In this document: positions 6,237 to 40,228 of the stretch, piece by piece
How positions within the stretch are numbered: the stretch's first letter is position 1
Layout of the letters: the number at the start of each line of letters is the position of its first letter
Notes under the pieces: model-generated
Database searches by the model: none
What the model was told of the DNA's origin: nothing
What the model saw: the letters and a program-made list of their open reading frames with translations, nothing else
NCBI GenBank assembly: GCA_040905365.1
Contig: JBBDRQ010000061.1
Coordinates: 21,079-85,078 of the forward strand
Reading direction: 5' to 3'
Source: Actinomycetota bacterium
GTDB taxonomy: Bacteria > Actinomycetota > CADDZG01 > JAHWKV01
Length of the DNA: 64,000 nucleotides
Made by a program: the position numbers and the translations under genes

Positions 6237-7388
6237 ATGGACAAGATCACCGGTCAGGAGTTGCTGAGGCAGGCGAAGGCCAAGGCGAACGCGCTCAGCC
6301 CGGACGCGGTCGCCTCGCTCGTCGACGACGAAGATGTGACCCTGGTCGACGTCCGGGAGGGAGACGAATGGCGTAAGGGACACCTTCCTCGCGCCGTCCA
6401 CGTTCCCCGTGGCTACCTGGAGATGCAGGCCGAGGGCAAGCTGCCCAGCAAGGACTCCCCCCTTATCGTTTACTGCGCGGGCGGGAATCGATCGGCGTTT
6501 GCCACCGAGACTTTGAAGCAGATGGGCTACAGCAACGTACGTCATATGAGCGGGGGATTCACGGCCTGGAAGGACGCCGGCTTGGAGGTGGTTCAACCGC
6601 GGGTATGGACCGATAAGCAAATGGACCGCTACTCCCGGCACTTCGTCCTACCGGAGGTGGGCGAGGCGGGGCAGCAAAGGATCTCCGACAGCAAGATCCT
6701 GGTTATCGGCGCCGGAGGCCTGGGCTCGCCGGCCCTTTACTACCTGGCTGCGGCAGGCGTGGGAACGCTCGGCATAGTGGACATGGATGACGTGGAGGTC
6801 AACAATCTGCAGCGCCAGATCATCCACGCGACCTCGCGCATCGGTGTGAACAAGGCAGAGAGCGCCAAGGCCACGATCGAGGACCTCAATCCCAACGTCA
6901 GCGTCGAGGTCTGGACCGACCCGCTCGGTCCCGACAACGTCGACGAGGTGTTTCGCGGATTCGACATCGTGCTCGACGCGACCGATAACTTCTCTACCAG
7001 ATACCTAATCAACGAAACCGCCTACCGGTTCGGGATTCCGAGCATCTACGGCTCGATCTACCGTTTTGAGGGGTACGCGAGTGTGTTCTGGCCGGCCAAG
7101 GGCGGGCCTTGCTACCGTTGCATGCATCCAGAGGCGCCGCCTGCAGAACTTGCCCCCACCTGAGGGGAAGCCGGAGTCCTGGGCGTGCTCCCAGGAGTGA
7201 TCGGAGTTTTGCAGGCGAACGAGGCCCTGAAGATGCTGGTGGGTTACGGCGAGCCCTTGGTCGGCAGGATCTTGACCTTCGACGCACAGGCCACCGCGTT
7301 TGGTGAACTCAAGCTGCGTCGTGACCCCAACTGCGTTACGTGCGGGTCCGGAGATCAAACCGAACAGGAAGCTCGCAAGAGCGCTTGA
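6237..7388 (+). CDS. Rhodanese-MoeB/ThiF-family adenylyltransferase fusion interrupted by an in-frame TGA at 7161-7163 (candidate selenocysteine codon)
   Basis: Has a rhodanese active-site loop YCAGGNRS; a ThiF nucleotide-binding VIGAGGLGSP motif; a CYRC ... CVTCG zinc motif. ORF-track pieces 6237..7163 and 7185..7388 are in the same frame. The TGA aligns with the Cys of MoeZ SCAEGGVLG / E. coli MoeB TCVEAGV. A hairpin TCCTGGG-CGTGCT-CCCAGGA lies at 7177..7196. Confidence 0.7.
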
Positions 7389-20640: not shown

Positions 20641-23526
20641 ATGGTGACGAAGCTTCCTTCGCCCGGATCCGGGCGACCGCTGCGGACGGTCCTGATCGGA
20701 CTGATTTTTGTCGTCATAATCTCGCTGTCGGCAATTGTCAGCCTGTACGTCGACCTGCTTTGGTTCCAGGAGGTCGGCTTCGATTCGGTGTTCTGGAAGA
20801 TCCTGTCCTCGCAAGCCTTCCTGGTGGCAGCGTTCGGTTTGGTCTTTTTTGTTTTTTGTCTCGTCAATCTGATCGTCGTCTCCCGATCCAGCCCCACTTA
20901 TCCGATGACCGACCCGGACGACCCGTTGGAGCGGCTGCGAGAAGCCTTGATTCCACTTCCCAAATGGATTCTTATCGGCGCCAGCGCGCTGCTGGCGTTT
21001 CTGTTTGCTTTGCGATTGGCTCCCGCTTGGGAGCTGTTTTTGCTGTCGAACAACCAGGTGCCCTTTGGGATCGAGGACCCGGTGTTCCAAAAGGACATCG
21101 GTTTTTACGTCTTTCGGCTGCCCATGCTGCAGTTGACCTATCAGTGGCTGTTCTCGGCAGTATTCGTGGTGATCCTGCTGGTGGCAGGTACCTATTACCT
21201 CACGGGAGGCATCCGGCCCCAGGCGGCGATCGATCGGGTGTCGGCCAACGTAAAGGTCCACTTGTCCGTGCTGATCGGCCTGCTGGCGCTGCTAAGGGCG
21301 TGGGGCTACCGGCTTGACCAGTTCGAGCTTTTGTACTCCGAGCGGGGGACGGTGTCGGGAGCGTCCTACACCGATGTAACCGCCGAGCTGCCGGCTCTGA
21401 ATTTGTTGCTTGTGGTTTCGATAATCGGCGCAATCTTGTTCCTCGTAAATATTCGCTTCAGGGGCTGGGCGCTGCCTGCCATCGGTTTGGGTCTGTGGGT
21501 CCTCACCTCGGTTCTGGCCGCCGGCGTCTACCCGGCGGTCATCGAGCGCTTTCGGGTAGAGCCGGCTCAGCTGCAAAGGGAGCGGCCTTACCTGGAACGC
21601 AATCTCGAGTCGACCCGGTCCGCCTATGGATTGGATGCCATGGAGGTTACCCAGTTTCCGATCGAGCCGGGCTTGAGCGCCGAAACGGTGGAGGGTAACG
21701 ACAACACCTTGGACAACGTCAGGCTCTGGGATCCCCAGACGTTGAAGACCGCGTACCGCCAGCTCCAGGAGATCCGGACCTACTACCAGTTTCAAGACGT
21801 GGACGTGGATCGCTACACGATCAACGGGCAGCGCCGGCAGTTGATGCTGGCGCTGCGCGAGCTCGACGTCAGCGGATTGGAGAGCCGGTCTTGGCTAAAC
21901 GATCACTTGGTTTACACGCACGGCTACGGTGCGGTTGCCAGCCCCACCAACGACACCGAGGGGGAGGGACGCCCACGGCTGCTGCTGCGGGACATACCTC
22001 CAGCCAGCGGTGTGGACCGGCTGGACATAGAGCGATCCGGCATCTACTTCGGCGAAGGCCCCGCTACTTACTCGGTGGTCAAGACGGAGCAATTGGAGCT
22101 TGACTACACCGCCGAGGGCGAGAACCGGACTACCGAATATGCGGGCGAGGCCGGCATCCCCATCTCCAACCTCTTCCGGCGGGCGGCGCTGGCTTGGAAT
22201 TTCCGGGACGTCAACCTGCTGATCTCCAGCCTTATCGACTCCGACTCCGAGATCCTGACCAACCGCAATATCCGCCAGCGCGTGCAGAAGGTGGCTCCGT
22301 TTCTGGAATTAGACGGCGATCCGTACCCGGTGATCGCCGACGGAAAGATCACATGGATGCTCGACGCCTACACGGTCTCGGGCATGTACCCGTATTCGCA
22401 GCACTTCGACTTCCAGGGCCTCTCGATGATCCGCGGGGGTGCATCGGAGGGTCAACCCAGCATCTTTGGCACGAACAACTACATACGCAACTCGGTGAAA
22501 GTGACCGTCGACGCGTACGACGGCACGATCAAGCTGCACGTATGGGACGAGGACGATCCGATTATCCGGGCCTGGCGCAGCGCCTTTCCCGATCTTTTCG
22601 TCGATCAGGACGCGATGCCCGCGGAGTTGAGGGAGCACATTCGCTATCCCGAGGATCTGTTCCGCATCCAGGCCAACGTGTATCAGCGCTACCACATGAC
22701 CAACATCACCGAGTTCTACCAGCGCGAGGACCAATGGGTCATTCCGGATCAACCGGAGGGTATAGCCGCCAGCGGCGGCGCCAGATCCAACAAGCTGGAC
22801 CCCTACTACGTGTTGATGCGGCTCCCCGACGCCGATGCCGACCAGTACGTGATGATCCTGCCGATGAACCCGCGTGGCCGCCCCAACATGGTGTCCTTGC
22901 TGGCCGCCAAATCCGATCCGGACGAGTTTGGCGAGCTGGTCGATTTGAGGTTCCCTGCAGGCCTGCAGGTGTTCGGTGTGGGCCAGGTTCATGCGCGAAT
23001 CAACGCCAACGAGGAGATCTCAGAAACTCGTACTCTGCTGGGCCAGGGCGGTTCCAGGGTAATCTTGGGCAACCTGTTGGTCCTGCCGATCGGTGATTCG
23101 CTGGTGTACTCGCAGCCGCTGTTCGTGCAAGCCGAATCCAACGCTATCCCGGAGCTCAAGTACGTGATCCTGGCCACCTCGGACCAGGTCCGTATGGCGC
23201 CGACGGTCGAGTTGGCGCTGGAGGCGCTGCTTAGGGACGGACCGACGGTCGTCGATACCCCCGACGAATTGGACGAGACTCCGGAGGGAGAAGGGGAGCC
23301 GGCCGATCCTCCGCCGCCCGAACCCGAACCCGAACCCGAGCCCGAGCCCGAGCCCGAGCCCGAACCGGAACCCGAACCGCTAACCGGGACGCAGCAGGAG
23401 CTCCTGCTGCAGGCGGCCGAGCACTTCGACGCCGCCGACGAGGCTGCTCGCAACGGCGACTGGGCCACTTACGGCGAGCAGCAGCGCCTGGGCCGGGAAG
23501 CGATTAGCGAGGCCCTGGGCGGCTAG
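20641..23526 (+). CDS. UPF0182-family large polytopic membrane protein with C-terminal (PE)n repeat
   Basis: 961 aa with 7 or more N-terminal TM helices and a large extracytoplasmic domain. It resembles mycobacterial Rv3193c-type proteins. Confidence 0.85.
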   Translation: MVTKLPSPGSGRPLRTVLIGLIFVVIISLSAIVSLYVDLLWFQEVGFDSVFWKILSSQAFLVAAFGLVFFVFCLVNLIVVSRSSPTYPMTDPDDPLERLREALIPLPKWILIGASALLAFLFALRLAPAWELFLLSNNQVPFGIEDPVFQKDIGFYVFRLPMLQLTYQWLFSAVFVVILLVAGTYYLTGGIRPQAAIDRVSANVKVHLSVLIGLLALLRAWGYRLDQFELLYSERGTVSGASYTDVTAELPALNLLLVVSIIGAILFLVNIRFRGWALPAIGLGLWVLTSVLAAGVYPAVIERFRVEPAQLQRERPYLERNLESTRSAYGLDAMEVTQFPIEPGLSAETVEGNDNTLDNVRLWDPQTLKTAYRQLQEIRTYYQFQDVDVDRYTINGQRRQLMLALRELDVSGLESRSWLNDHLVYTHGYGAVASPTNDTEGEGRPRLLLRDIPPASGVDRLDIERSGIYFGEGPATYSVVKTEQLELDYTAEGENRTTEYAGEAGIPISNLFRRAALAWNFRDVNLLISSLIDSDSEILTNRNIRQRVQKVAPFLELDGDPYPVIADGKITWMLDAYTVSGMYPYSQHFDFQGLSMIRGGASEGQPSIFGTNNYIRNSVKVTVDAYDGTIKLHVWDEDDPIIRAWRSAFPDLFVDQDAMPAELREHIRYPEDLFRIQANVYQRYHMTNITEFYQREDQWVIPDQPEGIAASGGARSNKLDPYYVLMRLPDADADQYVMILPMNPRGRPNMVSLLAAKSDPDEFGELVDLRFPAGLQVFGVGQVHARINANEEISETRTLLGQGGSRVILGNLLVLPIGDSLVYSQPLFVQAESNAIPELKYVILATSDQVRMAPTVELALEALLRDGPTVVDTPDELDETPEGEGEPADPPPPEPEPEPEPEPEPEPEPEPEPLTGTQQELLLQAAEHFDAADEAARNGDWATYGEQQRLGREAISEALGG
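23317..23379 (+). repeat. Tandem hexanucleotide repeat (CCCGAR)x10 encoding (Pro-Glu)n within the UPF0182 C-terminus
   Basis: The repeat is read directly from the sequence. It is in-frame within the UPF0182 gene. Confidence 0.8.
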
Positions 23527-23583: not shown

Positions 23584-23657
<74 letters not shown>

Positions 23658-23677
23658 ACTAGATTTCAGGCACAAAT

Positions 23678-23708
23678 GAGGCCCCCGGGGAACTTCCGGG
23701 GGCCTTTT
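23678..23708 (+). terminator. Rho-independent terminator downstream of tRNA-Met
   Basis: AGGCCCCCGG - loop - CCGGGGGGCCT followed by TTTT. Confidence 0.65.
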
Positions 23709-23973
23709 AACTGTCCGCTCACCTCGCTCACGAAAGATCGAAGCTGGCCTTACTCCATACTCCATGTTTGCGGCGAGTAAGTCTTCGCAGGAATTTGCGC
23801 ATCCGCAGTGAAGGGATCGAAGCCTTCTGGGGTGTAGTCGTCCAGGTACCAATCGACGACGTACCTTTCCTGGTCGTGATGGGTGCTCGGAGCTGGGTTT
23901 TCATGGATACGCAGTCGGAACAGGGAAATCACCTCCGAAGTCTTGTCTACCCTGCCGCGGGTAGTGCCAGGTT

Positions 23974-24432
23974 CTACTTATGCACTACCTGGGTGTGGGC
24001 GGCCAGGTCTCCTAGGCGCTGCCTTTTTGAGGAGACCAGAACCGTGATGAAGGCCACCAGATAGAAGAACAGTCCGTCAACAATGCGCAGAACCGTCCTA
24101 ATGGTTGCGGGGCCCAGCCCCGGGACCTCATTCGAATCTTCCTTCACGACCTTGATGCCGGCGACCATCTTTCCGACTGTTTGGCCCAGATAGCCCTCCA
24201 TGAGAATGAAGTACGCGAGCGCCAGCAAGCCGTAGGCGAACGCCGGCAAGCCCGCAAGGTTGGCCTCCCACGTTCCCTGCACGGCCGCGAAGTCGCCGAA
24301 GGCGGATGCCATGGCGGCGAACAGCAGGCCCAAGATGAGGCCGTCGACGATGGTCGCTACCACCCTTTTGCCGGTGACGTGGAAATTCTCTTGTGCCGCG
24401 GTTGCCGAATAACCCACCGTATGGCTGGTCAT
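23974..24432 (-). CDS. RDD-family membrane protein
   Basis: 152 aa from an internal ATG (confirmed as CAT at 24430-24432 on the + strand), with three TM helices and an RDD-like fold. The ORF-track extension to 25077 is antisense to the TlpA-like fragment. Confidence 0.7.
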   Translation of the reverse strand: MTSHTVGYSATAAQENFHVTGKRVVATIVDGLILGLLFAAMASAFGDFAAVQGTWEANLAGLPAFAYGLLALAYFILMEGYLGQTVGKMVAGIKVVKEDSNEVPGLGPATIRTVLRIVDGLFFYLVAFITVLVSSKRQRLGDLAAHTQVVHK

Positions 24433-24604
24433 GTTGCGTTCCCCTTTCGCCGGGTTGCTCTGTGTGGGCAGCCTGACGTCTGCTCGGCGCGGGCGGTAGA
24501 TGCAAGTGGCCCGGCTTCTACGGGGCTTTAGGCCCTTAGCTCGATGTGCAGCAGGTGGCTCGGCAGGTCTGAGCACGGACTTCCCGGCCCTGGGCGTGCG
24601 CCGG

Positions 24605-24960
24605 GTGCCGGAGAAGACTCGAAAGACGGCGCCCGTGGCTCTTGCGGCCGCGGCCGCCTGCACGTCCGGGCAAAACGACTCCTCACCGTCGCCGAAGGCG
24701 GCAGCTACCGTGCCCGACGCCGCTACCGCGACGCCGGATCCGCCGGGCGGCACCGCCCCTTCGATGCAGACCAACTCAGCTCGACAGGCGGCCGAAGTGC
24801 CGCCGATTGTGGACTTCACCGCGTCCCGGTTGGGCGGCGGGGAGGTGGTCGGCGCCGAGCTGGCCGGAAACCACGTGGCTATGTGGTTTTGGGCTCCCTG
24901 GTGACCCACCTGCAATGCGGAAGCTTCCGATGTCGCACAGGTGGTGCGAGAGTATGAGTG
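24605..24960 (+). pseudogene. Truncated TlpA/ResA-like thioredoxin-fold lipoprotein fragment with TGA in place of the first Cys of the CxxC motif
   Basis: GTG 24605; signal peptide with AAAAAC lipobox; ... GEVVGAELAGNHVAMWFWAPW-TGA(24902-04)-PTCNAEASDVAQVVREYE matches FWASWCGPCRAEAP.L..L...Y. Homology ends about 20 codons later and the region then overlaps the cupredoxin gene on the opposite strand. Confidence 0.55.
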
Positions 24961-25016
24961 GTGCCTGTATCCGCACCGGCGGAACCGAGGTGGTGCTTTC
25001 TTTGGAACCACGGGCC

Positions 25017-25469
25017 TCAGTCGTTCACTACGAGTGTGCCCACCATTCCGGCTTGGGCATGTCCGGGAATTGTGCATTCAAACCGGTACCGTCCGGCGTC
25101 GGTTACCTCAAGCCCTCCCGTGGATCGCCGGCCTGCATTGGCTCTCAGCTGGAAATCTAGTTCGACGATGGTGAAATCGTGGATCAGCGCGCCTCGATTG
25201 CTCAGGCCGATATTGACCGGTTCCCCTGCGGTGATTTCGATCCTGGAGGGGTCGAAAACGAATTCACCGGCTTGGACCTCGATCTGCTCGCCGCCCCGGA
25301 TGCGGGGTGGAAGTGGGCCGCTATCGTCTACACGCCAGCCCATCATCGTCCCGTGCGGATGATAGGACCAGCCGGCGCCGCTTCCGGAGGAAACCGCCAT
25401 GCCGACCAACCCCACCACCAACGACGCGACTCCACCGATCAGCAAAGCGCGCGAAGGCATCCGTGTCAC
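25017..25469 (-). CDS. Secreted cupredoxin-like copper-binding protein
   Basis: N-terminal signal/TM segment; FECTIPGHAQAGMVGTLVV gives type-1 Cu ligands (Cys, His, Met). Confidence 0.8.
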   Translation of the reverse strand: MTRMPSRALLIGGVASLVVGLVGMAVSSGSGAGWSYHPHGTMMGWRVDDSGPLPPRIRGGEQIEVQAGEFVFDPSRIEITAGEPVNIGLSNRGALIHDFTIVELDFQLRANAGRRSTGGLEVTDAGRYRFECTIPGHAQAGMVGTLVVND

Positions 25470-25693
25470 CTGCTTTCCAGCGCTCTACGGCGTCGCTCGA
25501 ACTCTTCCTCGTCGATCTCACCACGGGCAAAGCGCTCCTCGAGAATGTGCATGGCGCGCCCGGCTTCTTTCGACCCCTCGGAGCTCCCCCGGTGTTGCGT
25601 GGCCTGGACGGCCCAAACGATGACCGCGATTAGTCCGCCCCAAAACAGCAGCATCCACAACCACATCCACCAACCGCCGTATCCGTACATCAT
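25466..25693 (-). CDS. SHOCT-domain small membrane protein
   Basis: MMYGYGGWWMWLWMLLFWGGLIAVIVW ... ILEERFARGEIDEEEFERRRRAL. Overlaps the cupredoxin start by 4 nt. Confidence 0.7.
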   Translation of the reverse strand: MMYGYGGWWMWLWMLLFWGGLIAVIVWAVQATQHRGSSEGSKEAGRAMHILEERFARGEIDEEEFERRRRALESR

Positions 25694-25876: not shown

Positions 25877-28828
25877 CTACGTGCGGGACTGTGACGCGGT
25901 GCTGGTTACGTAATTTCCCGGGTCTTCTACAAACTGCTCCCGGCAATGCTCGGAGCAGAAGTACAGGATCTCCCCCTCGTGCTCAACGCTGCCCGCAGCG
26001 CGATTTGGGTCGATCTTCATTCCGCAAACCGGGTCGGTCACTTGCTCCGGCCGTTCGCTGCCCGCGTCGTCGGCCCCAACTTCCACGGCGGGCGTGCCGG
26101 CCAACGCCAGTTTGTCGGTGCTGATGGGATGTGGACGCCAGTGGCGTAGCCGGTTGGCGTTGGTCACCACCGACAGGCTGGAGGCGGCCATAGCGGCCGC
26201 AGCGATCATCGGGCTGAGCTGAACGCCGATGAACGGGTAGAGAACTCCAGCGGCGACGGGAATCCCGACTCCGTTGTAGATAAAAGCAAGGAACAGGTTT
26301 TGCCGTATGTTTCGCATCGTGGCTCGACTTAGGGTAATGGCGGTGACTACGCCGTCGAGCGATCCGGCGATCAAAGTAATGTCGGAGGATTCGATTGCCA
26401 CGTCGGTGCCGGTGCCGATTGCAAATCCGATATCGGCCTGAGCAAGTGCCGGAGCGTCGTTTATGCCGTCGCCGACCATTGCCACTATTGAGCCTTCGTC
26501 CTGAAGGCGGCGTACCTCCAGAGCCTTGTGCTCGGGCAGCACTTCGGCCAGAACTCGTTCCACGCCTACCTGTCGGGCTATGGCGGTGGCGGTGCGAGCA
26601 TTGTCACCGGTGATCATTGCCACGGTCGGACCCAGCGCCCGCAATGCAGCAATGGCGGCGGTGGACTCTTCCTTGATGGTGTCGGCGACCGCGATGACGC
26701 CGCCAGGACCGCCGTCGACAGCCACCAGCATGGGAGTGCGGCCGGCTTCGGCAAGCCGCTCGGTCTCGGCGGTTAGCTGGTTGGTGTCGACGGAGGCGTC
26801 GTCGAGCAACCGGCGATTGCCGATGAGCACCTCGCGTCCGTCCACCAAGGCGCGGATACCCTTGCCGGTGATGGAGTCGAACTGGGCAGGCGCAGCCAGT
26901 TCCAGCCCGCGCTCACGAGCACCGGCCACTATGGCCCGAGCCAGGGGGTGCTCGGAGGACTGCTCGGCGGAGGCGACCAGGCGGAGCAGTTCGTCCTCGT
27001 CGATTCGTCCGACCGCGGTTACGTCGGTGAGTGCGGGTTCACCGCGTGTGATGGTGCCCGTCTTATCCAGCACTATCGTATCGATCTTGTGTGCGGTCTC
27101 CAGGGCTTCGGCCGAGCGGATGAGAATCCCCTGCTGCGCACCCTTGCCGGTGGCCACCATGATCGACAGCGGTGTCGCCAGGCCCAAGGCGCAAGGGCAG
27201 GCGATAATCAGCACGGAAACCGCGGCAATCAGCGCAAGAGTGAGCGCCGGCTGAGGCCCGACCAGGAACCAGGTCACGAAGGTGCCGACCGCAACGAACA
27301 TGACCGTCGGCACGAAGTACGAAGACACCAGATCCGCCAGGCGCTGAATAGGGGCTTTGGAGCCCTGGGCCTGTTCTACGAGTTTGATAATCTGCGACAG
27401 CATCGTGTCGGCGCCGACTTTGGTGGCCCTGAAACGAAAAGCGCCGGTCTGGTTGATGGTGGCGCCGATAACCGTGTCTCCAGCATCCTTGGTGACCGGT
27501 ATGGATTCGCCCGTGACCATGGACTCATCTATGGTGGAGCGCCCGTCGATGACCTCGCCGTCCACGGGGATCTTATCCCCGGGCCGAACCAGGACGACAT
27601 CGCCCGGGACCACATCTTCGATGGGAATCTCCAGCTCGGCCCCGTCCCGGATGGTTGTTGCGGTGCGGGCTTGCAGACCGATCAGCTTACGGATGGCCTC
27701 CCCGGTACCGGCCTTGGCCCGAACCTCCAGCAGGCGACCCAAAAGAATCAAGGTGATGATCACTCCGACGGCTTCGAAGTAGACCGCTCGAACTCCGGCG
27801 GGAACCAGTGTGGGTGCAATAGTCACGAATAGGCTGTAGCCGAACGCGGCGATGGTCCCGATGGTAATGAGGCTGTTCATGTCGGCGGTCCGGTGCCGCA
27901 TAGTCAGCCAGCCGGTGCGGTGTATCGGCCACCCCGCGTAGAGCATCACAGGCGTTGCCAATGCCAGTTGCACCCACCGGTTCATTAGGAAATCCGGCAC
28001 CCACTGGGCGGCAAAAAGGTCTGTGGCCATGACCGCGACCACCAGCGGTGTGGATAGGACCGCCCCCACCAGAACGCGGCGAGAAAGATCCTTGATCTCA
28101 GCCTGGCGCTCGGCCGCCTCGCTGTCTTCGGTAGCCGCGGTGCCGGGTGCCTCCCGGGGGACGAGCCGGTAGCCGGAGTCGGCCACGGCGGTTTGCAGAT
28201 CCGCGGAGGTGACCTTGCTCGGGTCGTACTCTACCATCGCCCGCTGAGTTCCCAGACTCACATCCACCCGGTCGACGCCCGGAATTTCGGTGAGCATCGA
28301 CTCGATGTTGACCACGCACGACGCACACGACATGCCGCTGACGCGGAATTCTGCCTGCTCGGTGGAAACCGTGCGTTCCGTAGACGGTCCGACGCCGACG
28401 GCCTGCGCCACGGGCCGGTGCTCGTCAGGTGCGTCGGACTCGGAGGACGAGCCTTCCGGCTCCACGACTAGGGTTCCATGGATCATGTTCATCCCGCACG
28501 CGAAGCTGAACTCGCCTGCCCGGTCGGGAGTGAACTGAAGGCTAGCGGATCCGTAGGCCGGCAGCGTCTTGGAAACAGCGAAGTCGGGGAAAACCACCCG
28601 GGAAGTGCAGTCGCCGGCTTCTTGACGGTCGAACACGAGCCGTAGAGGCACTCCTTGCCGCACCCTGATCAGGTCCGGCGAGTAGCCTCCTTTAACGGTT
28701 ACGTTGACCTCCTGGACGCCGCCGACCAAATCCGCCCGGCGGGCCTTTTTTGGTCCGAAGAAGAACCATCCCAGGAACGCTGCAACTGCGACGCCGGCCA
28801 AGACGACGATCGTATCGATCGAGCTCAC
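25877..28828 (-). CDS. copA: Copper-translocating P1B-type ATPase: N-terminal TM + cupredoxin-like domain, one HMA (GMSCASC), C-terminal YHS/TRASH domain
   Basis: [16 protein letters not shown]; N-terminal [16 protein letters not shown]; C-terminal VCGMKID ... [11 protein letters not shown]. The GTG start follows GGAGG. Confidence 0.9.
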
Positions 28829-29103: not shown

Positions 29104-29604
29104 ATGACGTCTACGGACGACCTTATTAAGAACAATCAGAGCTACGCGGCGGCGTCGTCGTCGTTCAGTCGCGCCAACGCGTCCGCGACTCCAATGAAGC
29201 GGGTGGCGGTGGTGGCGTGCATGGATGCGCGGGTAAACGTTTTTGAATTGCTGGGGTTGCAGGAAGGCGATGCCCACGTTATTCGCAACGCCGGCGGCGT
29301 CGTTACCGACGACGTTATTCGCAGCCTGACGATTTCCCAGCGGCTGCTGGGTACGCGCGAGGTCGTTCTAATCCACCACACCGACTGCGGGATGCTGTCT
29401 GTGGCCGAGGAAGAGCTCAGAGCTGAGATCGAAGCCGACACGGGGGTGAGGCCCCCCTTTGACCTGGGAGTCTTCGACGATCTGGAGGCGGACGTTCGCG
29501 AGTCGATCGCTCGTATCCAAGCCAGCCTCTTCATTCCCAACAAGACCGCGGTGCGTGGTTTTGTTCTGGATCTCAAGACTGGGGAGCTCAACGAAGTGGT
29601 CTGA
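29104..29604 (+). CDS. Beta-class carbonic anhydrase
   Basis: CMDAR ... HTDCGM zinc-ligand motifs. 166 aa. Confidence 0.85.
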   Translation: MTSTDDLIKNNQSYAAASSSFSRANASATPMKRVAVVACMDARVNVFELLGLQEGDAHVIRNAGGVVTDDVIRSLTISQRLLGTREVVLIHHTDCGMLSVAEEELRAEIEADTGVRPPFDLGVFDDLEADVRESIARIQASLFIPNKTAVRGFVLDLKTGELNEVV

Positions 29605-37864: not shown

Positions 37865-38522
37865 ATAACTTCACCTCCGAGACTGCGTGTTGTTCGCCGA
37901 ACAGATCGAGCAGCACCGATCCGGGGCAGGGCAGGGTGTCCAATGCCGCGTACGTGTATGAGGTCGCTTCTTCCACCACCTCTTCGACCGCACCCGAAAG
38001 CTTCGCCAGCAGCCGGTGGACCTGTACGGGATCGATTCCCAACAGCCGAACCGCGGCGCCGGCCGGTCCGGCTATGGCGTTGAAAGCGGTGCACCTGGCG
38101 GCATCGGCGGCCCGCAGACCGGCGGCAGCCGTCGCGGCGCCCATCGCGACTGGGTGGTGGGGTCCATCGGGAATTTGCCACGCCAGGGCGTCGAGCTTGT
38201 CCGGCCACAGCCGGCCGGCCGTTCGGATCAACTGTTTGCCTTGCCGGCGGGAAGCCCGGCGGATGGCCGGCGACGGGGTGCGAGCGTCGGCCTCCGCGTC
38301 CAGGTCCCGCCAGTCTTCGCGCTCTACGCTTGCCGCGGCAGCCAGGGCGGCGGCGCTCAGGCCCGCTGTAAACAGCCGGCCGAGCAGGAACCGGCCCAGC
38401 GAATCCAAGTCGGTGACCCGACCGGCGGCGACCGCGCTCTCCATTCCCCCCGAATGGGCGTGGCCGCCGGCCGGAAACCTTCCGTCAGCGAGCAGCAGGG
38501 CGTTGACCGGAGCGCCGCCCAT
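37854..38522 (-). CDS. ureF: Urease accessory protein UreF
   Basis: The internal ATG overlaps the ureC stop (TGATG). The ORF-track extension to 38924 lies inside ureC. Confidence 0.75.
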
Positions 38523-40228
38523 CAAAACAGGAAGTACCGCTGGGCCATCGGGAGCTCGACCGCCGGGTCGGCGTCTATGGCCTCTCCGTCGATGGTCACA
38601 GTGAATGTATCGGGCTCCACCTCGATTCGGGGTAGAGCGTCGTTTTGGGGCATGTCGGCTTTGCCGCGCTTGCGCACGTCTGAGACCGGAACCACCCTGC
38701 GATTTAGCTGGAGCGTCTCGGCAATCCCGCCTTCGAGCGCGGCCGGCGCCACAAAGGCGACGCTCGTCTTGCCGGCCGCGACGCCGTAGGCTCCGAACAT
38801 CGGCCGGGGCAGTACCGGCTGCGGCGTGGGAATCGATGCGTTGGCGTCGCCCATGGCAGCCCAGGCGATCATGCCGCCCTTGACTACCACATGGGGCCGG
38901 ACACCGAAGAACGCCGGGTCCCACAGCACCAGGTCCGCCAGCTTGCCTGGTTCGACCGAACCCACCTCGGCCTCGAGCCCGTGGGCCACGGCGGGGCAGA
39001 TCGTGTACTTGGCCACGTAACGCCGGGCCCGGCGGTTGTCGGCGGGGCCGTCGCCCGGCAGGGATCCCCGCCTATGTTTCATGCAGTGCGCGGTCTGCCA
39101 GGTTCTCGACACCACCTCGGCAACCCGGCCCATGGCCTGGGCGTCGGAGCCGATCATGGAGATGGCGCCCATATCGTGCAGGACGTCCTCTGCGGCGATC
39201 GTCGACGGCCGGATCCGGCTCTCGGCAAAGGCCAAATCCTCGGGAACTGCAGGGTTGAGGTGGTGGCAGACCATGAGCATGTCGAAGTGCTCGTCGATGG
39301 TGTTGCGCGTGTGCGGCCGGGTCGGGTTGGTCGACGACGGCAGGAAGTTGGGCTGCCCGGCTACGGTGATGATGTCGGGGGCGTGCCCGCCGCCCGCCCC
39401 TTCGGTGTGATAGGCGTGAATGCTGCGTCCCGCCGCTGCCGCTATCGTGTCCTCCACGAAGCCGGCTTCGTTCAAGGTGTCGGTGTGCACCGCCACCTGG
39501 ACGCCCGCTTCGTCGGCGACGCTTAGGCAGGCGTCGATGGCGGCCGGTGTGGTGCCCCAGTCCTCGTGCAGCTTGAGCCCGCTGGCGCCACCCCGCAACT
39601 GCTCCCACATGGCCTCGGCAGAGGTCGTGTTGCCCTTGCCCAGCAGGGCTATGTTGATCGGCCAGGGGTCTATGGCCTCCAGCATTCGACGCAGGTGCCA
39701 GGCACCGGGGGTGACAGTGGTGGCCTTCGACCCCTCCGCCGGACCCGTGCCTCCGCCGACGATGGTGGTGATGCCGGTACCCAGCGCCTCCTCAAAGATT
39801 TGGGGGCACACCAGGTGTACGTGACAGTCGATCGCCCCAGGGGTGAGGATTTTGCCGTTGCCGGCGATTACCTCCGTGCCGGGGCCGATCACCAGCTCCG
39901 GGCTGACGCCGTCCATGGTGTCGGGGTTGCCGGCCTTGCCGATACCTGCGATGCGGCCGTCGGCAATGCCTACATCCGCTTTGATGATTCCCCAATGGTC
40001 GAGGATGAGGGCACCGGTTATTACGGTGTCGAGCGCCCCCTCGGCCCGGGTGGCGCGGGACTGGCCCATCGATTCGCGAACCACCTTGCCGCCGCCGAAC
40101 ACCGCCTCGTCGCCGCCGGCACACAGGTCCTGTTCTACCTCGATGAGCAGGTTGGTGTCGGCAAGCCTGATGCGGTCCCCGGTAGTGGGGCCGAATAGGG
40201 CGTTGTAGTGGGAGCGGTCCAACTGCAT
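38522..40228 (-). CDS. ureC: Urease alpha subunit
   Basis: 568 aa with an amidohydrolase fold, His ligands, and the MVCHHL and GSD motifs. Confidence 0.95.

What the first reader, a model, noticed from the sequence alone, without database searches (positions are those of the whole stretch)
24605..24960. Truncated TlpA-like thioredoxin-fold lipoprotein fragment with UGA replacing the first Cys of CxxC (UxxC)
After a lipoprotein signal (AAAAAC lipobox) and a linker, the + strand encodes ...GGGEVVGAELAGNHVAMWFWAPW-TGA-PTCNAEASDVAQVVREYE. This matches the TlpA/ResA consensus FWASWCGPCRAEAPxLxxLxxxY with TGA (24902-04) at the first Cys. UxxC in a thioredoxin fold is a classic selenoprotein redox motif. 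Homology stops about 20 codons later, and the region then overlaps the well-supported cupredoxin gene on the other strand. So this is a 5' gene remnant, probably cut by insertion of the copper module. An extended imperfect hairpin (CCACCTG ... GGAAGCTTCC ... CAGGTGG, 24906-24944) starts right after the TGA. This is a second TGA-at-Cys within 20 kb, which supports genuine Sec usage in this organism.
Basis: partly seen in the sequence, partly recalled or inferred. Interest (0 to 1): 0.6.

Follow-up and report, generated by a model that had tools for sequence, protein, structure and literature searches.

The report
Truncated remnant of a selenoprotein gene
This is the broken-off front third of a gene for an exported selenocysteine-containing disulfide enzyme that is common in this group of bacteria; the "stop" codon is a real selenocysteine codon with its RNA signal intact, but the rest of the gene is gone, so it is most likely a dead remnant of a known kind.

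Summary
Window 24605-24958 (+) encodes a lipoprotein signal, a linker and the first ~55 residues of a DsbE/DsbF/TlpA-type thioredoxin fold, with TGA (24902-04) at the first Cys of CxxC.

The TGA is not a nonsense mutation. A pattern scan for WFWAPW-TGA-xx-C found at least 119 loci in GTDB species genomes, against about 0.3 expected by chance. Nearly all are Acidimicrobiia or other Actinomycetota. Almost all read on for ~97-101 conserved codons; the few shorter ones appear to be cut by contig ends.

A hairpin after the TGA is conserved with compensatory changes. The window keeps it at 24933-24949 (loop AGGUG). A covariance model built from relatives hits the window at 69 bits.

Homology ends exactly at 24958, 18 codons after Sec. 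The C-terminal two-thirds of the fold is absent from all six frames of the 64 kb window. A simple insertion of the copper module is therefore not supported; the 3' part was lost.

An intact MoeB gene with TGA at its catalytic Cys (7161-63) supports Sec use in this organism.

UxxC TlpA-like selenoproteins are already described. This is a degraded member, of modest interest.

The parts
24605..24664 (+). GTG start, signal peptide and lipobox (AAAAA-C; lipid-attachment Cys codon 24659-24661)
   Evidence: Translation. NCBI calls the same start (99-aa MEX2587913.1). Cys19 is an invariant column aligned with the lipobox Cys of relatives.
24665..24790 (+). Low-complexity Ala/Pro/Thr/Ser linker of the mature lipoprotein
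   Evidence: Translation. Relatives carry comparable linkers of variable length.
24791..24901 (+). First ~37 residues of the thioredoxin fold, ending in the WFWAPW motif
   Evidence: PDB hits DsbE and DsbF. The family N-terminal HMM matches positions 2-40 (E 2.4e-12). Identity to Sec-type relatives is 62-68%.
24902..24904 (+). TGA = ancestral selenocysteine codon (first position of UxxC)
   Evidence: At least 119 genomes have TGA at this codon, followed by ~100 conserved codons. About 140 of the 150 closest library proteins end exactly here. Cys-type homologs have Cys at this column.
24905..24958 (+). Last 18 native codons (PTCNAEASDVAQVVREYE), including the resolving Cys (24911-13) and the start of helix alpha-1
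   Evidence: The family N-terminal HMM matches positions 42-59. Alignments to relatives end at 24958.
24933..24949 (+). Conserved SECIS-like hairpin: stem 24933-38 / 24944-49, apical loop AGGUG 24939-43, 34 nt after the UGA
   Evidence: -8.5 kcal/mol, z -2.9. The same helix in 28 relatives has 97.8% of cells paired and 3 of 5 pairs with compensatory changes; no shuffle reaches this (0/500). RNAalifold predicts the same helix independently. The covariance model hit is 69.3 bits, E 7e-20, with all pairs standard. It fits the published bacterial SECIS model.
24918..24929 (+). Small upstream hairpin CGGA-AGCU-UCCG, at the place where relatives have a hairpin over the xREAP codons (variable register)
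   Evidence: -4.3 kcal/mol. Relatives show CCGGGAnnnTCCCGG or CAGGGGnnnnCCCCTG here, but in two registers. Not tested for covariation.
24959..25174 (+). Non-homologous tail of the open frame after the breakpoint (72 codons to TGA 25172-74), mostly antisense to the cupredoxin gene; not part of the ancestral gene
   Evidence: Translation. No family similarity. The codon-usage score is worse than alternative frames.
25017..25469 (-). Convergent cupredoxin gene, last gene of the cupredoxin-SHOCT-CopA copper module that now abuts the remnant
   Evidence: Pfam Cupredoxin_1 38.2 bits and Copper-bind 33.1 bits, both above their cut-offs. SHOCT and the P-type ATPase are supported.

Best explanation
Window 24605-24958 is the 5' remnant (signal peptide, linker and about 55 residues) of a gene for an exported, lipid-anchored DsbE/DsbF/TlpA-type thiol-disulfide oxidoreductase. 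Its active site is U-x-x-C instead of C-x-x-C.

In intact relatives the UGA is decoded as selenocysteine. Decoding is directed by a short hairpin that lies inside the coding sequence 31-48 nt downstream (a bacterial SECIS, bound by SelB-GTP-Sec-tRNASec; this step is inferred from the established bacterial mechanism). The mature protein works outside the cytoplasmic membrane as a redox enzyme on protein thiols and disulfides.

In this genome the gene was broken at 24958/24959, 18 codons after Sec and 9 nt after the SECIS stem. The remaining ~80 codons, which complete the thioredoxin fold, are gone. The remnant now abuts the 3' end of a convergent copper-resistance operon.

The remnant therefore cannot make a thioredoxin fold and is most likely a pseudogene. 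The TGA is inherited, not a decay mutation.

Shown: homology, position of the TGA, family-wide read-through ORFs, hairpin covariation, the breakpoint, and absence of the 3' part. Inferred: Sec insertion itself, non-functionality of the remnant, and the nature of the rearrangement.
For: The fragment matches DsbE and DsbF with TGA on the first Cys.

The pattern WFWAPW-TGA-xx-C occurs in at least 119 GTDB genomes, against ~0.3 expected. All 119 hits are in frame, and all but five read on for 91-106 further codons of conserved fold; the five shorter ones appear to be cut by contig ends.

In an exhaustive search of 1.84 billion representatives, about 140 of the best 150 relatives are gene calls that stop exactly at this codon. 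A few full-length Cys forms also exist.

The closest relative recovered, L121, is a full-length U-protein.

The hairpin at +33..+47 is conserved with compensatory pairs. The window matches a covariance model built without it, at 69.3 bits over all 63 positions. The hairpin meets the published bSECIS criteria.

Homology stops at 24958 in every comparison. A C-terminal HMM has no hit in 64 kb. Full-length relatives pass Pfam Redoxin/AhpC-TSA over the whole profile, while the window copy covers only the first ~40% and falls below cut-off.

The junction is reproduced in an independent assembly.

An intact MoeB gene in the same window reads through TGA at the Cys187-equivalent position (NF006444, 507 bits against a 449 cut-off, full length). 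This indicates that the organism decodes Sec.
Against: No Sec machinery (selA, selB, selC, selD) is in the window, and the rest of the MAG could not be searched, so Sec decoding in this organism is inferred only from the MoeB gene.

No close relative with an intact syntenic locus was found, so the ancestral state and the mechanism of truncation are not reconstructed.

The remnant shows no further decay. It has no frameshift or extra stop in 99 codons, the signal peptide is intact, and the SECIS is intact with a compensatory pair. The loss is therefore either recent, or the remnant is under some constraint.

No promoter-like or terminator-like site was detected around it, which says nothing either way about expression.
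Confidence: 0.85

Rival explanations
1. Plain nonsense mutation: the gene was a Cys-type TlpA/DsbE gene, and TGC/TGT mutated to TGA by chance during pseudogene decay.
For: The gene is truncated and so not under selection. Cys codons are one step from TGA. Cys-type homologs exist (P0001, P0045, P0080).
Against: All nearest relatives (62-68% identity) carry TGA at this codon in intact genes. The window also keeps the clade-specific hairpin with a compensatory pair, and scores 69 bits on a model built from Sec-type genes only. There is no other decay mutation in the 99 codons upstream.
Confidence: 0.03
2. Assembly artefact: the join at 24958/24959 is chimeric, and the real genome has an intact selenoprotein gene here.
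For: The source is a metagenome-assembled genome. GGTGGTGC-like words recur at 24941, 24958 and 24990 and could mislead an assembler.
Against: An independent Logan assembly of run SRR27977661 gives a 3.9-kb contig that is 100% identical across the aligned stretch spanning the junction (window 24332-25100), with the same gene order. However, this is probably the same read set, so a systematic misjoin is not excluded.
Confidence: 0.06
3. The remnant is still a working gene. It would make either a short 77-residue lipoprotein ending before the UGA, or, through Sec insertion, a chimeric UxxC lipoprotein with a new 72-residue tail ending at 25174.
For: The start codon, signal peptide, lipobox, UGA and SECIS hairpin are all intact, and the frame stays open to 25174. 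NCBI annotates a 99-aa protein.
Against: The tail has no homolog and is poorer in codon usage than other frames, and it lies antisense to a well-supported gene. About 55 residues of a thioredoxin fold, lacking the strands and the cis-Pro loop that complete the active site, are not expected to fold (established knowledge of the fold). Only one 90% cluster, with two members from one population, carries it.
Confidence: 0.05
4. The copper module (cupredoxin-SHOCT-CopA) inserted into the gene and split it.
For: The breakpoint lies 58 bp from the end of the module, and a tRNA-Met gene with a lower-GC stretch lies 1 kb upstream.
Against: The 3' part of the gene is not on the far side of the module or anywhere else in 64 kb. 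There are no flanking direct or inverted repeats, and no integrase or transposase. The module's GC content is like its surroundings. The 8-kb loci of only 2 of the 119 relatives hold any CopA-like gene.
Confidence: 0.15

Closest known systems
UxxC 'thiol-disulfide isomerase-like' / TlpA-like (cd02966) predicted selenoprotein family (Zhang, Fomenko & Gladyshev 2005, PMC1088965; listed in the 2026 review PMC13188914)
   Same: It is a thioredoxin-fold, TlpA/ResA-like protein with a UxxC motif, Sec at the first Cys and widespread Cys homologs, and it was predicted from marine and environmental sequence. The relatives found here fit that description.
   Different: I could not obtain the reference sequence (MGB1650493.1) to prove it is the same family. 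The window copy is only the first ~40% of such a gene. No NCBIfam model reaches its cut-off on the full-length relative tested (L121), so no dedicated model appears to cover this family.
Mycobacterium tuberculosis DsbE (MPT53, PDB 1LU4) and DsbF (PDB 3IOS)
   Same: These are the best solved relatives. They share the motif (LWFWTPWCPFCNAEAP in DsbE, LWFWAPWCPTC in DsbF), an actinobacterial origin and an exported location. That DsbF is a lipoprotein is from my own knowledge.
   Different: They use Cys, not Sec, and they are complete proteins. The oxidase-versus-reductase direction of the Sec family is unknown.
TlpA (Bradyrhizobium), ResA (Bacillus), CcmG/DsbE (E. coli): membrane-anchored reductases for cytochrome c and Cu-centre maturation
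   Same: Same superfamily, the same W-C-x-x-C context and an extracytoplasmic location. Weak NCBIfam hits to ResA, StoA, TlpA and DsbE.
   Different: All scores are far below the family cut-offs. No CcdA/DsbD or cytochrome-maturation gene is a conserved neighbour. In a subset of Acidimicrobiia the conserved neighbours look, by eye and without a profile search, like lpd, sucB and lipB-lipA.
Bacterial SECIS elements (consensus model summarised in PMC13188914; E. coli fdhF SECIS)
   Same: The hairpin lies inside the ORF, with a 5-nt apical loop that has G at position 2 followed by G/U. Spacing is 34 nt (model range 16-37) and MFE is -8.5 (model limit -7.5). The larger clade uses an invariant GGUC loop; from memory, this is also the fdhF loop sequence.
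   Different: The family uses two different registers: loop at +30-33 in 82 loci, and at +38-42 in 25 loci plus the window. No Rfam family matches. SelB binding is untested.
Selenoprotein loss events in bacteria (Zhang et al. 2006, PMC1794560)
   Same: This is a selenoprotein gene being lost from a Sec-using lineage; four such events were reported in Actinobacteria.
   Different: Here the loss is caught as a physical remnant that still carries the UGA and its SECIS, rather than inferred from absence or Cys replacement.

Membership tests
TlpA/ResA/DsbE-like thioredoxin-fold oxidoreductases (Pfam Redoxin / AhpC-TSA; cd02966) | W-[C/U]-x-x-C active-site motif at the start of helix alpha-1, preceded by the beta-strand ...WFWA | tested here: met
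   WFWAPW-U-PTC aligns with the CPxC of DsbE and DsbF and with relatives.
TlpA/ResA/DsbE-like thioredoxin-fold oxidoreductases (Pfam Redoxin / AhpC-TSA; cd02966) | Complete thioredoxin fold, including the C-terminal strands and helix with the cis-Pro loop | tested here: not met
   Only profile positions 5-56/124 and 8-57/148 are matched. Alignments stop at 24958. The C-terminal HMM has no hit in the window.
TlpA/ResA/DsbE-like thioredoxin-fold oxidoreductases (Pfam Redoxin / AhpC-TSA; cd02966) | Score above Pfam's gathering threshold | tested here: not met
   The fragment scores 23.5 against 26 (AhpC-TSA) and 20.3 against 26.6 (Redoxin). Full-length relatives pass at 43.4, 31.5 and 49.9 bits.
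TlpA/ResA/DsbE-like thioredoxin-fold oxidoreductases (Pfam Redoxin / AhpC-TSA; cd02966) | Export signal or lipobox placing the domain outside the cytoplasm | tested here: met
   The N-terminus has a basic n-region, the h-region APVALAAAAA and a Cys at residue 19. This Cys aligns with the lipobox Cys in all compared relatives. This is by inspection and alignment only; no signal-peptide predictor was available.
Bacterial selenoprotein genes (Sec-UGA plus SECIS) | In-frame UGA aligned with a catalytic redox Cys of Cys-containing homologs | tested here: met
Bacterial selenoprotein genes (Sec-UGA plus SECIS) | Orthologs keep UGA at the same codon and a conserved ORF continues downstream | tested here: met
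   This holds for the family: at least 119 genomes, with ~97-101 conserved codons after the UGA. In the window itself only 18 such codons remain.
Bacterial selenoprotein genes (Sec-UGA plus SECIS) | Hairpin downstream of the UGA that fits the bSECIS model and is conserved by covariation | tested here: met
Bacterial selenoprotein genes (Sec-UGA plus SECIS) | Sec machinery (selA, selB, selC/tRNA-Sec, selD) in the same genome | not testable with these tools
   There is none in the 64-kb window (only tRNA-Met). The rest of the MAG (locus-tag prefix WD602) could not be retrieved. Indirect support comes from the intact MoeB gene with in-frame TGA at 7161-63.
Bacterial selenoprotein genes (Sec-UGA plus SECIS) | Selenium actually incorporated at the UGA | not testable with these tools
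   This needs 75Se labelling, mass spectrometry or a reporter assay.
Published 'thiol-disulfide isomerase-like' UxxC selenoprotein family (PMC1088965 / PMC13188914, cd02966) | Sequence identity with the published reference member (MGB1650493.1) | not tested
The match is by description only: cd02966-type fold, UxxC, environmental Actinomycetota-rich data.

The most novel reading that the evidence does not exclude
The remnant is not dead. Its start codon, lipoprotein signal, UGA and SECIS hairpin are all intact, and the frame stays open to 25174. It could therefore be expressed as a new small selenoprotein: a lipid-anchored UxxC peptide with a de novo 72-residue tail encoded antisense to the cupredoxin gene. 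Alternatively its mRNA could act as a SelB-binding decoy. Either would be a rare glimpse of a selenoprotein module being re-used after gene breakage.
Probability: 0.04. Interest if true: 0.6.

Novelty: new member of a known kind. Interest (0 to 1): 0.3.

Why it matters
For this locus, it settles that the TGA is an inherited selenocysteine codon with its SECIS, in a gene that has since lost its 3' two-thirds. This is a physical snapshot of selenoprotein loss, not a sequencing or decay artefact.

More broadly, at least 119 species genomes carry an intact UxxC DsbE/TlpA-like lipoprotein gene; most are Acidimicrobiia, with some Nitriliruptoria and other Actinomycetota. Gene callers almost always cut this gene at the UGA: about 140 of the 150 nearest library proteins end there, and NCBI calls the window's copy a 99-aa hypothetical protein.

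No NCBIfam model reached its cut-off on the one full-length relative tested. A model for the protein plus its two SECIS registers would fix many annotations.

The family is also a handle on extracytoplasmic selenium redox chemistry in aerobic Actinomycetota.

Tried and rejected
- **Source contig lookups.** Exact-protein look-ups of the 150-aa cupredoxin ORF call, the UPF0182 protein and the first ORF failed. The source was identified instead through the 90% cluster look-up. Only short Logan contigs could be fetched, so the remaining ~33 kb of the NCBI contig and the rest of the MAG stayed out of reach.
- **Word-indexed protein search of the fragment.** It gave only two Cys-type hits. The exhaustive search was needed.
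- **Island boundaries.** A search for att-like direct repeats or inverted repeats around tRNA-Met and the copper module found only short chance-level repeats.
- **Synteny.** Apart from the source's own Logan contig L120, none of the fetched loci shares the window's neighbours, except a carbonic-anhydrase-like gene in L094 in a different arrangement. An RDD-anchored scan of JGI metagenomes gave 66 loci (up to 66% identity). None has the selenoprotein, the copper genes or UPF0182. The ancestral locus could not be reconstructed.
- **Frameshift rescue.** Other frames after 24958 show no family similarity. A weak MAFFT juxtaposition of AFFGTTGLS with VFLTSPGL is not supported by the HMM search and is treated as chance.
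- **Whole-family RNAalifold.** Run on ungapped 66-nt segments, it gave no structure, because the family uses two hairpin registers. Splitting by register resolved this.
- **Rfam.** No SECIS or other family matches at the site.
- **Promoter and terminator scan of 24300-25200.** Nothing found.
- **GC3-only screen for other in-frame TGAs.** It was unspecific. A codon-usage, best-of-six-frames screen found the MoeB case.

Full report
**What is in the sequence**

On the + strand, a frame opening at GTG 24605 encodes MPEKTRKTAPVALAAAAAC... This comprises a basic n-region, a short hydrophobic core and a Cys at residue 19. An Ala/Pro/Thr-rich linker follows, and then ...PPIVDFTASRLGGGEVVGAELAGNHVAMWFWAPW, TGA at 24902-24904, and PTCNAEASDVAQVVREYE.

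With Cys written for the TGA, the best solved relatives are M. tuberculosis MPT53/DsbE (1lu4, E 7.6e-12) and DsbF (3ios, E 9.2e-11). The TGA falls on the first Cys of their CPxC.

Pfam AhpC-TSA and Redoxin match only the first ~40% of their profiles and score below cut-off.

The neighbours are:
- a UPF0182-type membrane protein (20641-23526, +; this family label is my reading of the sequence, no profile search was run on it)
- tRNA-Met (23585-23659, +)
- an RDD-family gene (23974-24432, -)
- on the other side, a convergent cupredoxin (25017-25469, -), a SHOCT protein (25466-25693, -) and a CopA-type P-type ATPase with cupredoxin, HMA and YHS domains (25877-28828, -).

**The TGA is an inherited selenocysteine codon**

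I scanned one genome per GTDB species for DNA encoding W-F-W-A-P-W-TGA-x-x-C. This pattern has 20 fixed bases plus two twofold-degenerate positions, so about 0.3 matches are expected by chance in 1.2e12 positions.

Nearly all are MAGs of Acidimicrobiia (Poriferisodalis, Ilumatobacter, Microthrix, Aldehydirespiratoraceae), Nitriliruptoria (Euzebya, Egibacteraceae) or unclassified Actinomycetota.

In every locus the match is in frame with an upstream lipoprotein-like N-terminus. In 114 of the 119 the frame reads on past the TGA for 91-106 codons of conserved thioredoxin fold (...IGVAGRD...F...DG.LW..F.V..QPA..F...DG...) before a real stop. The five shorter ones appear to be cut by contig ends.

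An exhaustive phmmer search of the window's own 99-residue N-terminal product against 1.84 billion representatives gave 252 hits. About 140 of the best 150 end exactly at the residue aligned to the last Trp, so they are gene calls cut at the same TGA. A handful are full-length Cys forms (P0045, P0072, P0080).

The closest relative recovered is contig L121, 68.5% identical over 54 residues. It is a full-length U-protein.

TGA is used as an ordinary stop elsewhere in the window, for example in the cupredoxin gene, so a reassigned genetic code is not the explanation.

**The SECIS**

I counted positions with the U of UGA as 1. On that numbering the family uses two hairpin registers:
- 82 loci have a 4-bp stem at 26-29/34-37 closing an invariant GGUC loop. 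Several pair types occur at three of the four pairs (CG/GU/GC; UA/CG/GC; GC/UA/GU/AU).
- 25 loci plus the window have a 5-bp stem at 33-37/43-47 closing a 5-nt loop, mostly AGGUG, AGUUG or AGGUU.

On an alignment of 28 relatives of the second type, which excludes the window, that helix has 97.8% of cells paired. Three of five pairs show compensatory changes, and none of 500 column shuffles reaches the observed values. RNAalifold predicts the same helix without being told.

A covariance model built from those 28 sequences hits the window once, at 24896-24958. The hit is full length (63/63 positions), 69.3 bits, E 7e-20, with all five pairs standard. The next best hit in 64 kb is 9.4 bits.

In the window the stem is UCGCAC/GUGCGA (24933-38/24944-49) with loop AGGUG (24939-43). 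It folds at -8.5 kcal/mol, and only 1 of 200 shuffles does as well. The A-U pair replaces the usual G-C through changes on both sides.

The element fits the published consensus for bacterial SECIS. That model requires a 3-9 nt loop, a G in the first two loop positions followed by G/U, 16-37 nt between UGA and loop (here 34), and MFE at or below -7.5 (PMC13188914).

In the 28 relatives, however, only 66.7% of its cells pair, less than in shuffled columns, and it shows essentially no covariation. It appears to be a coincidence of the Pro-Thr-Cys and Gln-Val-Val codons. It also overlaps the conserved hairpin.

**The gene is truncated, and the 3' part is not nearby**

Every translated comparison with relatives ends at 24958 or a few bases before it. 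Relatives continue ...R-x-Y-E-G/D-x-V-x-F..., whereas the window continues W-C-L-Y-P-H-R-R-N.

A profile of the 82 family positions that should follow finds nothing in any of the six frames of the whole window, even with all filters off (best E 5.3). The N-terminal profile finds exactly the two pieces on either side of the TGA. An earlier tblastn with two Cys-type homologs gave the same answer.

Full-length relatives pass Pfam Redoxin/AhpC-TSA over the entire profile.

After the breakpoint the frame stays open for 72 more codons to TGA 25172-74. That stretch has poor codon usage and is mostly antisense to the cupredoxin gene.

The junction is not peculiar to one assembly. A Logan contig from run SRR27977661 is 100% identical across the aligned stretch spanning it (window 24332-25100) and has the same gene order. 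It probably derives from the same reads as the MAG, so this is only partial independence.

The source is an NCBI MAG labelled 'Actinomycetota bacterium'. The remnant is annotated there as a 99-aa hypothetical protein (WD602_07985, MEX2587913.1) on a 97-kb contig.

**How the truncation arose is not resolved**

A simple insertion of the copper module should have left the 3' fragment beyond 28828, and it is not there. I found no flanking repeats, integrase or transposase. The module's GC content matches its surroundings.

Apart from the source's own Logan contig, none of the fetched loci shares this neighbourhood. A metagenome scan anchored on the adjacent RDD gene returned 66 loci, none with the selenoprotein gene next to it.

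The cautious statement is that the 3' two-thirds was lost in a deletion or rearrangement whose other end lies 58 bp beyond the cupredoxin stop codon.

**Does this organism use Sec?**

The window contains no tRNA-Sec and no recognisable Sec machinery. I could not reach the rest of the MAG.

The window does hold a second, intact case. It is a rhodanese-ThiF gene at 6237-7388 with TGA at 7161-63.
- Read through, it matches NCBIfam MoeB NF006444 at 507 bits (cut-off 449) over positions 4-373 of 387.
- It matches Pfam ThiF over 1-236 of 238.
- The TGA aligns with Cys187 of E. coli MoeB and Cys184 of ThiF.
- A 7-bp hairpin lies at +17..+36.

MoeB is a published selenoprotein family (PMC1088965, PMC13188914). 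An intact essential-looking gene that needs UGA read-through is good indirect evidence that the organism decodes Sec.

**Comparison with what is known**

UxxC thioredoxin-fold selenoproteins of the TlpA/'thiol-disulfide isomerase-like' type (cd02966) were predicted in 2005 from the Sargasso Sea data. They are listed in a 2026 review. Selenoprotein loss in Actinobacteria has also been described.

The intact family found here fits that description. I could not compare it with the published reference sequence, so identity with that family is by description only.

No NCBIfam model reaches its cut-off on the full-length relative tested, L121. The nearest named selenoprotein model, the WAxxUGC ResA-like family, is a different motif.

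What the intact proteins do is inferred by analogy with DsbE/DsbF and TlpA/ResA: thiol-disulfide exchange on exported proteins. There is no conserved CcdA/DsbD or cytochrome-maturation neighbour. In a subset of Acidimicrobiia the gene sits next to ORFs that look like lpd, sucB and lipB-lipA by inspection; no profile search was run on them.

**Verdict**

The proposed SECIS hairpin and the insertion mechanism are not supported.

The object is a degraded member of a known selenoprotein family and is very probably non-functional. It is a tidy example of selenoprotein loss, and a reminder that this family is systematically mis-called. It is not a new kind of system.

Noticed in passing
window 6237-7388 (+), TGA at 7161-7163: An intact rhodanese-ThiF (MoeB-type) adenylyltransferase gene has an in-frame TGA at the position of E. 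coli MoeB Cys187 / ThiF Cys184. Read through, it scores 507 bits on NCBIfam MoeB NF006444 (cut-off 449), full length. A 7-bp hairpin lies 17-36 nt after the TGA. MoeB is a known selenoprotein family, and gene callers would split or truncate this gene.
   Followed up: partly
loci L001-L119 (GTDB genomes), positions +26..+47 after the TGA: The UxxC DsbE/TlpA-like family uses two different SECIS registers. 82 loci have an invariant GGUC loop at +30-33. 25 loci have a 5-nt AGGUN-type loop at +38-42. 12 loci fit neither cleanly; three of these have the second hairpin shifted by one base.
   Followed up: partly
loci L001-L119, about 0.5-5 kb upstream of the selenoprotein gene: In 16-29 of the Acidimicrobiia loci the selenoprotein gene lies divergently next to ORFs that look, by eye and without a profile search, like dihydrolipoamide dehydrogenase, an E2 acyltransferase and a lipB-lipA fusion. 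No CcdA/DsbD-type partner is conserved nearby.
   Followed up: no
window 29104-29604 (+): A 166-aa beta-carbonic-anhydrase-like ORF matches only the first half of the Pro_CA profile (2-73 of 156). A 57%-identical homolog of the same length lies about 2.9 kb from the selenoprotein gene in L094, so it seems to be a short divergent family rather than a second truncation. An overlapping antisense ORF (29142-69) is probably spurious.
   Followed up: partly
window 25877-28828 (-): The copper P-type ATPase has an unusual architecture: an N-terminal cupredoxin-like domain, one HMA domain, the ATPase core and a C-terminal YHS domain. It is followed in the operon by a SHOCT protein and a separate cupredoxin.
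   Followed up: no
window 39790-40078 (+): Rfam 5_ureB_sRNA (a Helicobacter antisense sRNA family) scores 64 bits inside the long ORF 38522-40228 on the minus strand, which from the Rfam family name I take to be a urease gene (not checked). The hit probably reflects conservation of that coding sequence rather than an sRNA.
   Followed up: no
window 23360-23440 (+) and 23585-24200: The UPF0182-type protein ends in a (Pro-Glu)n repeat. The tRNA-Met gene just downstream is followed by a lower-GC stretch (0.55-0.57) with a 60-aa minus-strand ORF (23750-23932). That ORF is seen elsewhere only in the source's own Logan contig. No att-like repeat was found.
   Followed up: partly
window 24941-24997 (+): GGTGGTGC-like words occur three times around the breakpoint (24941, 24958, 24990). 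The first is the 3' arm of the SECIS stem. They could be chance, or microhomology involved in the rearrangement.
   Followed up: no
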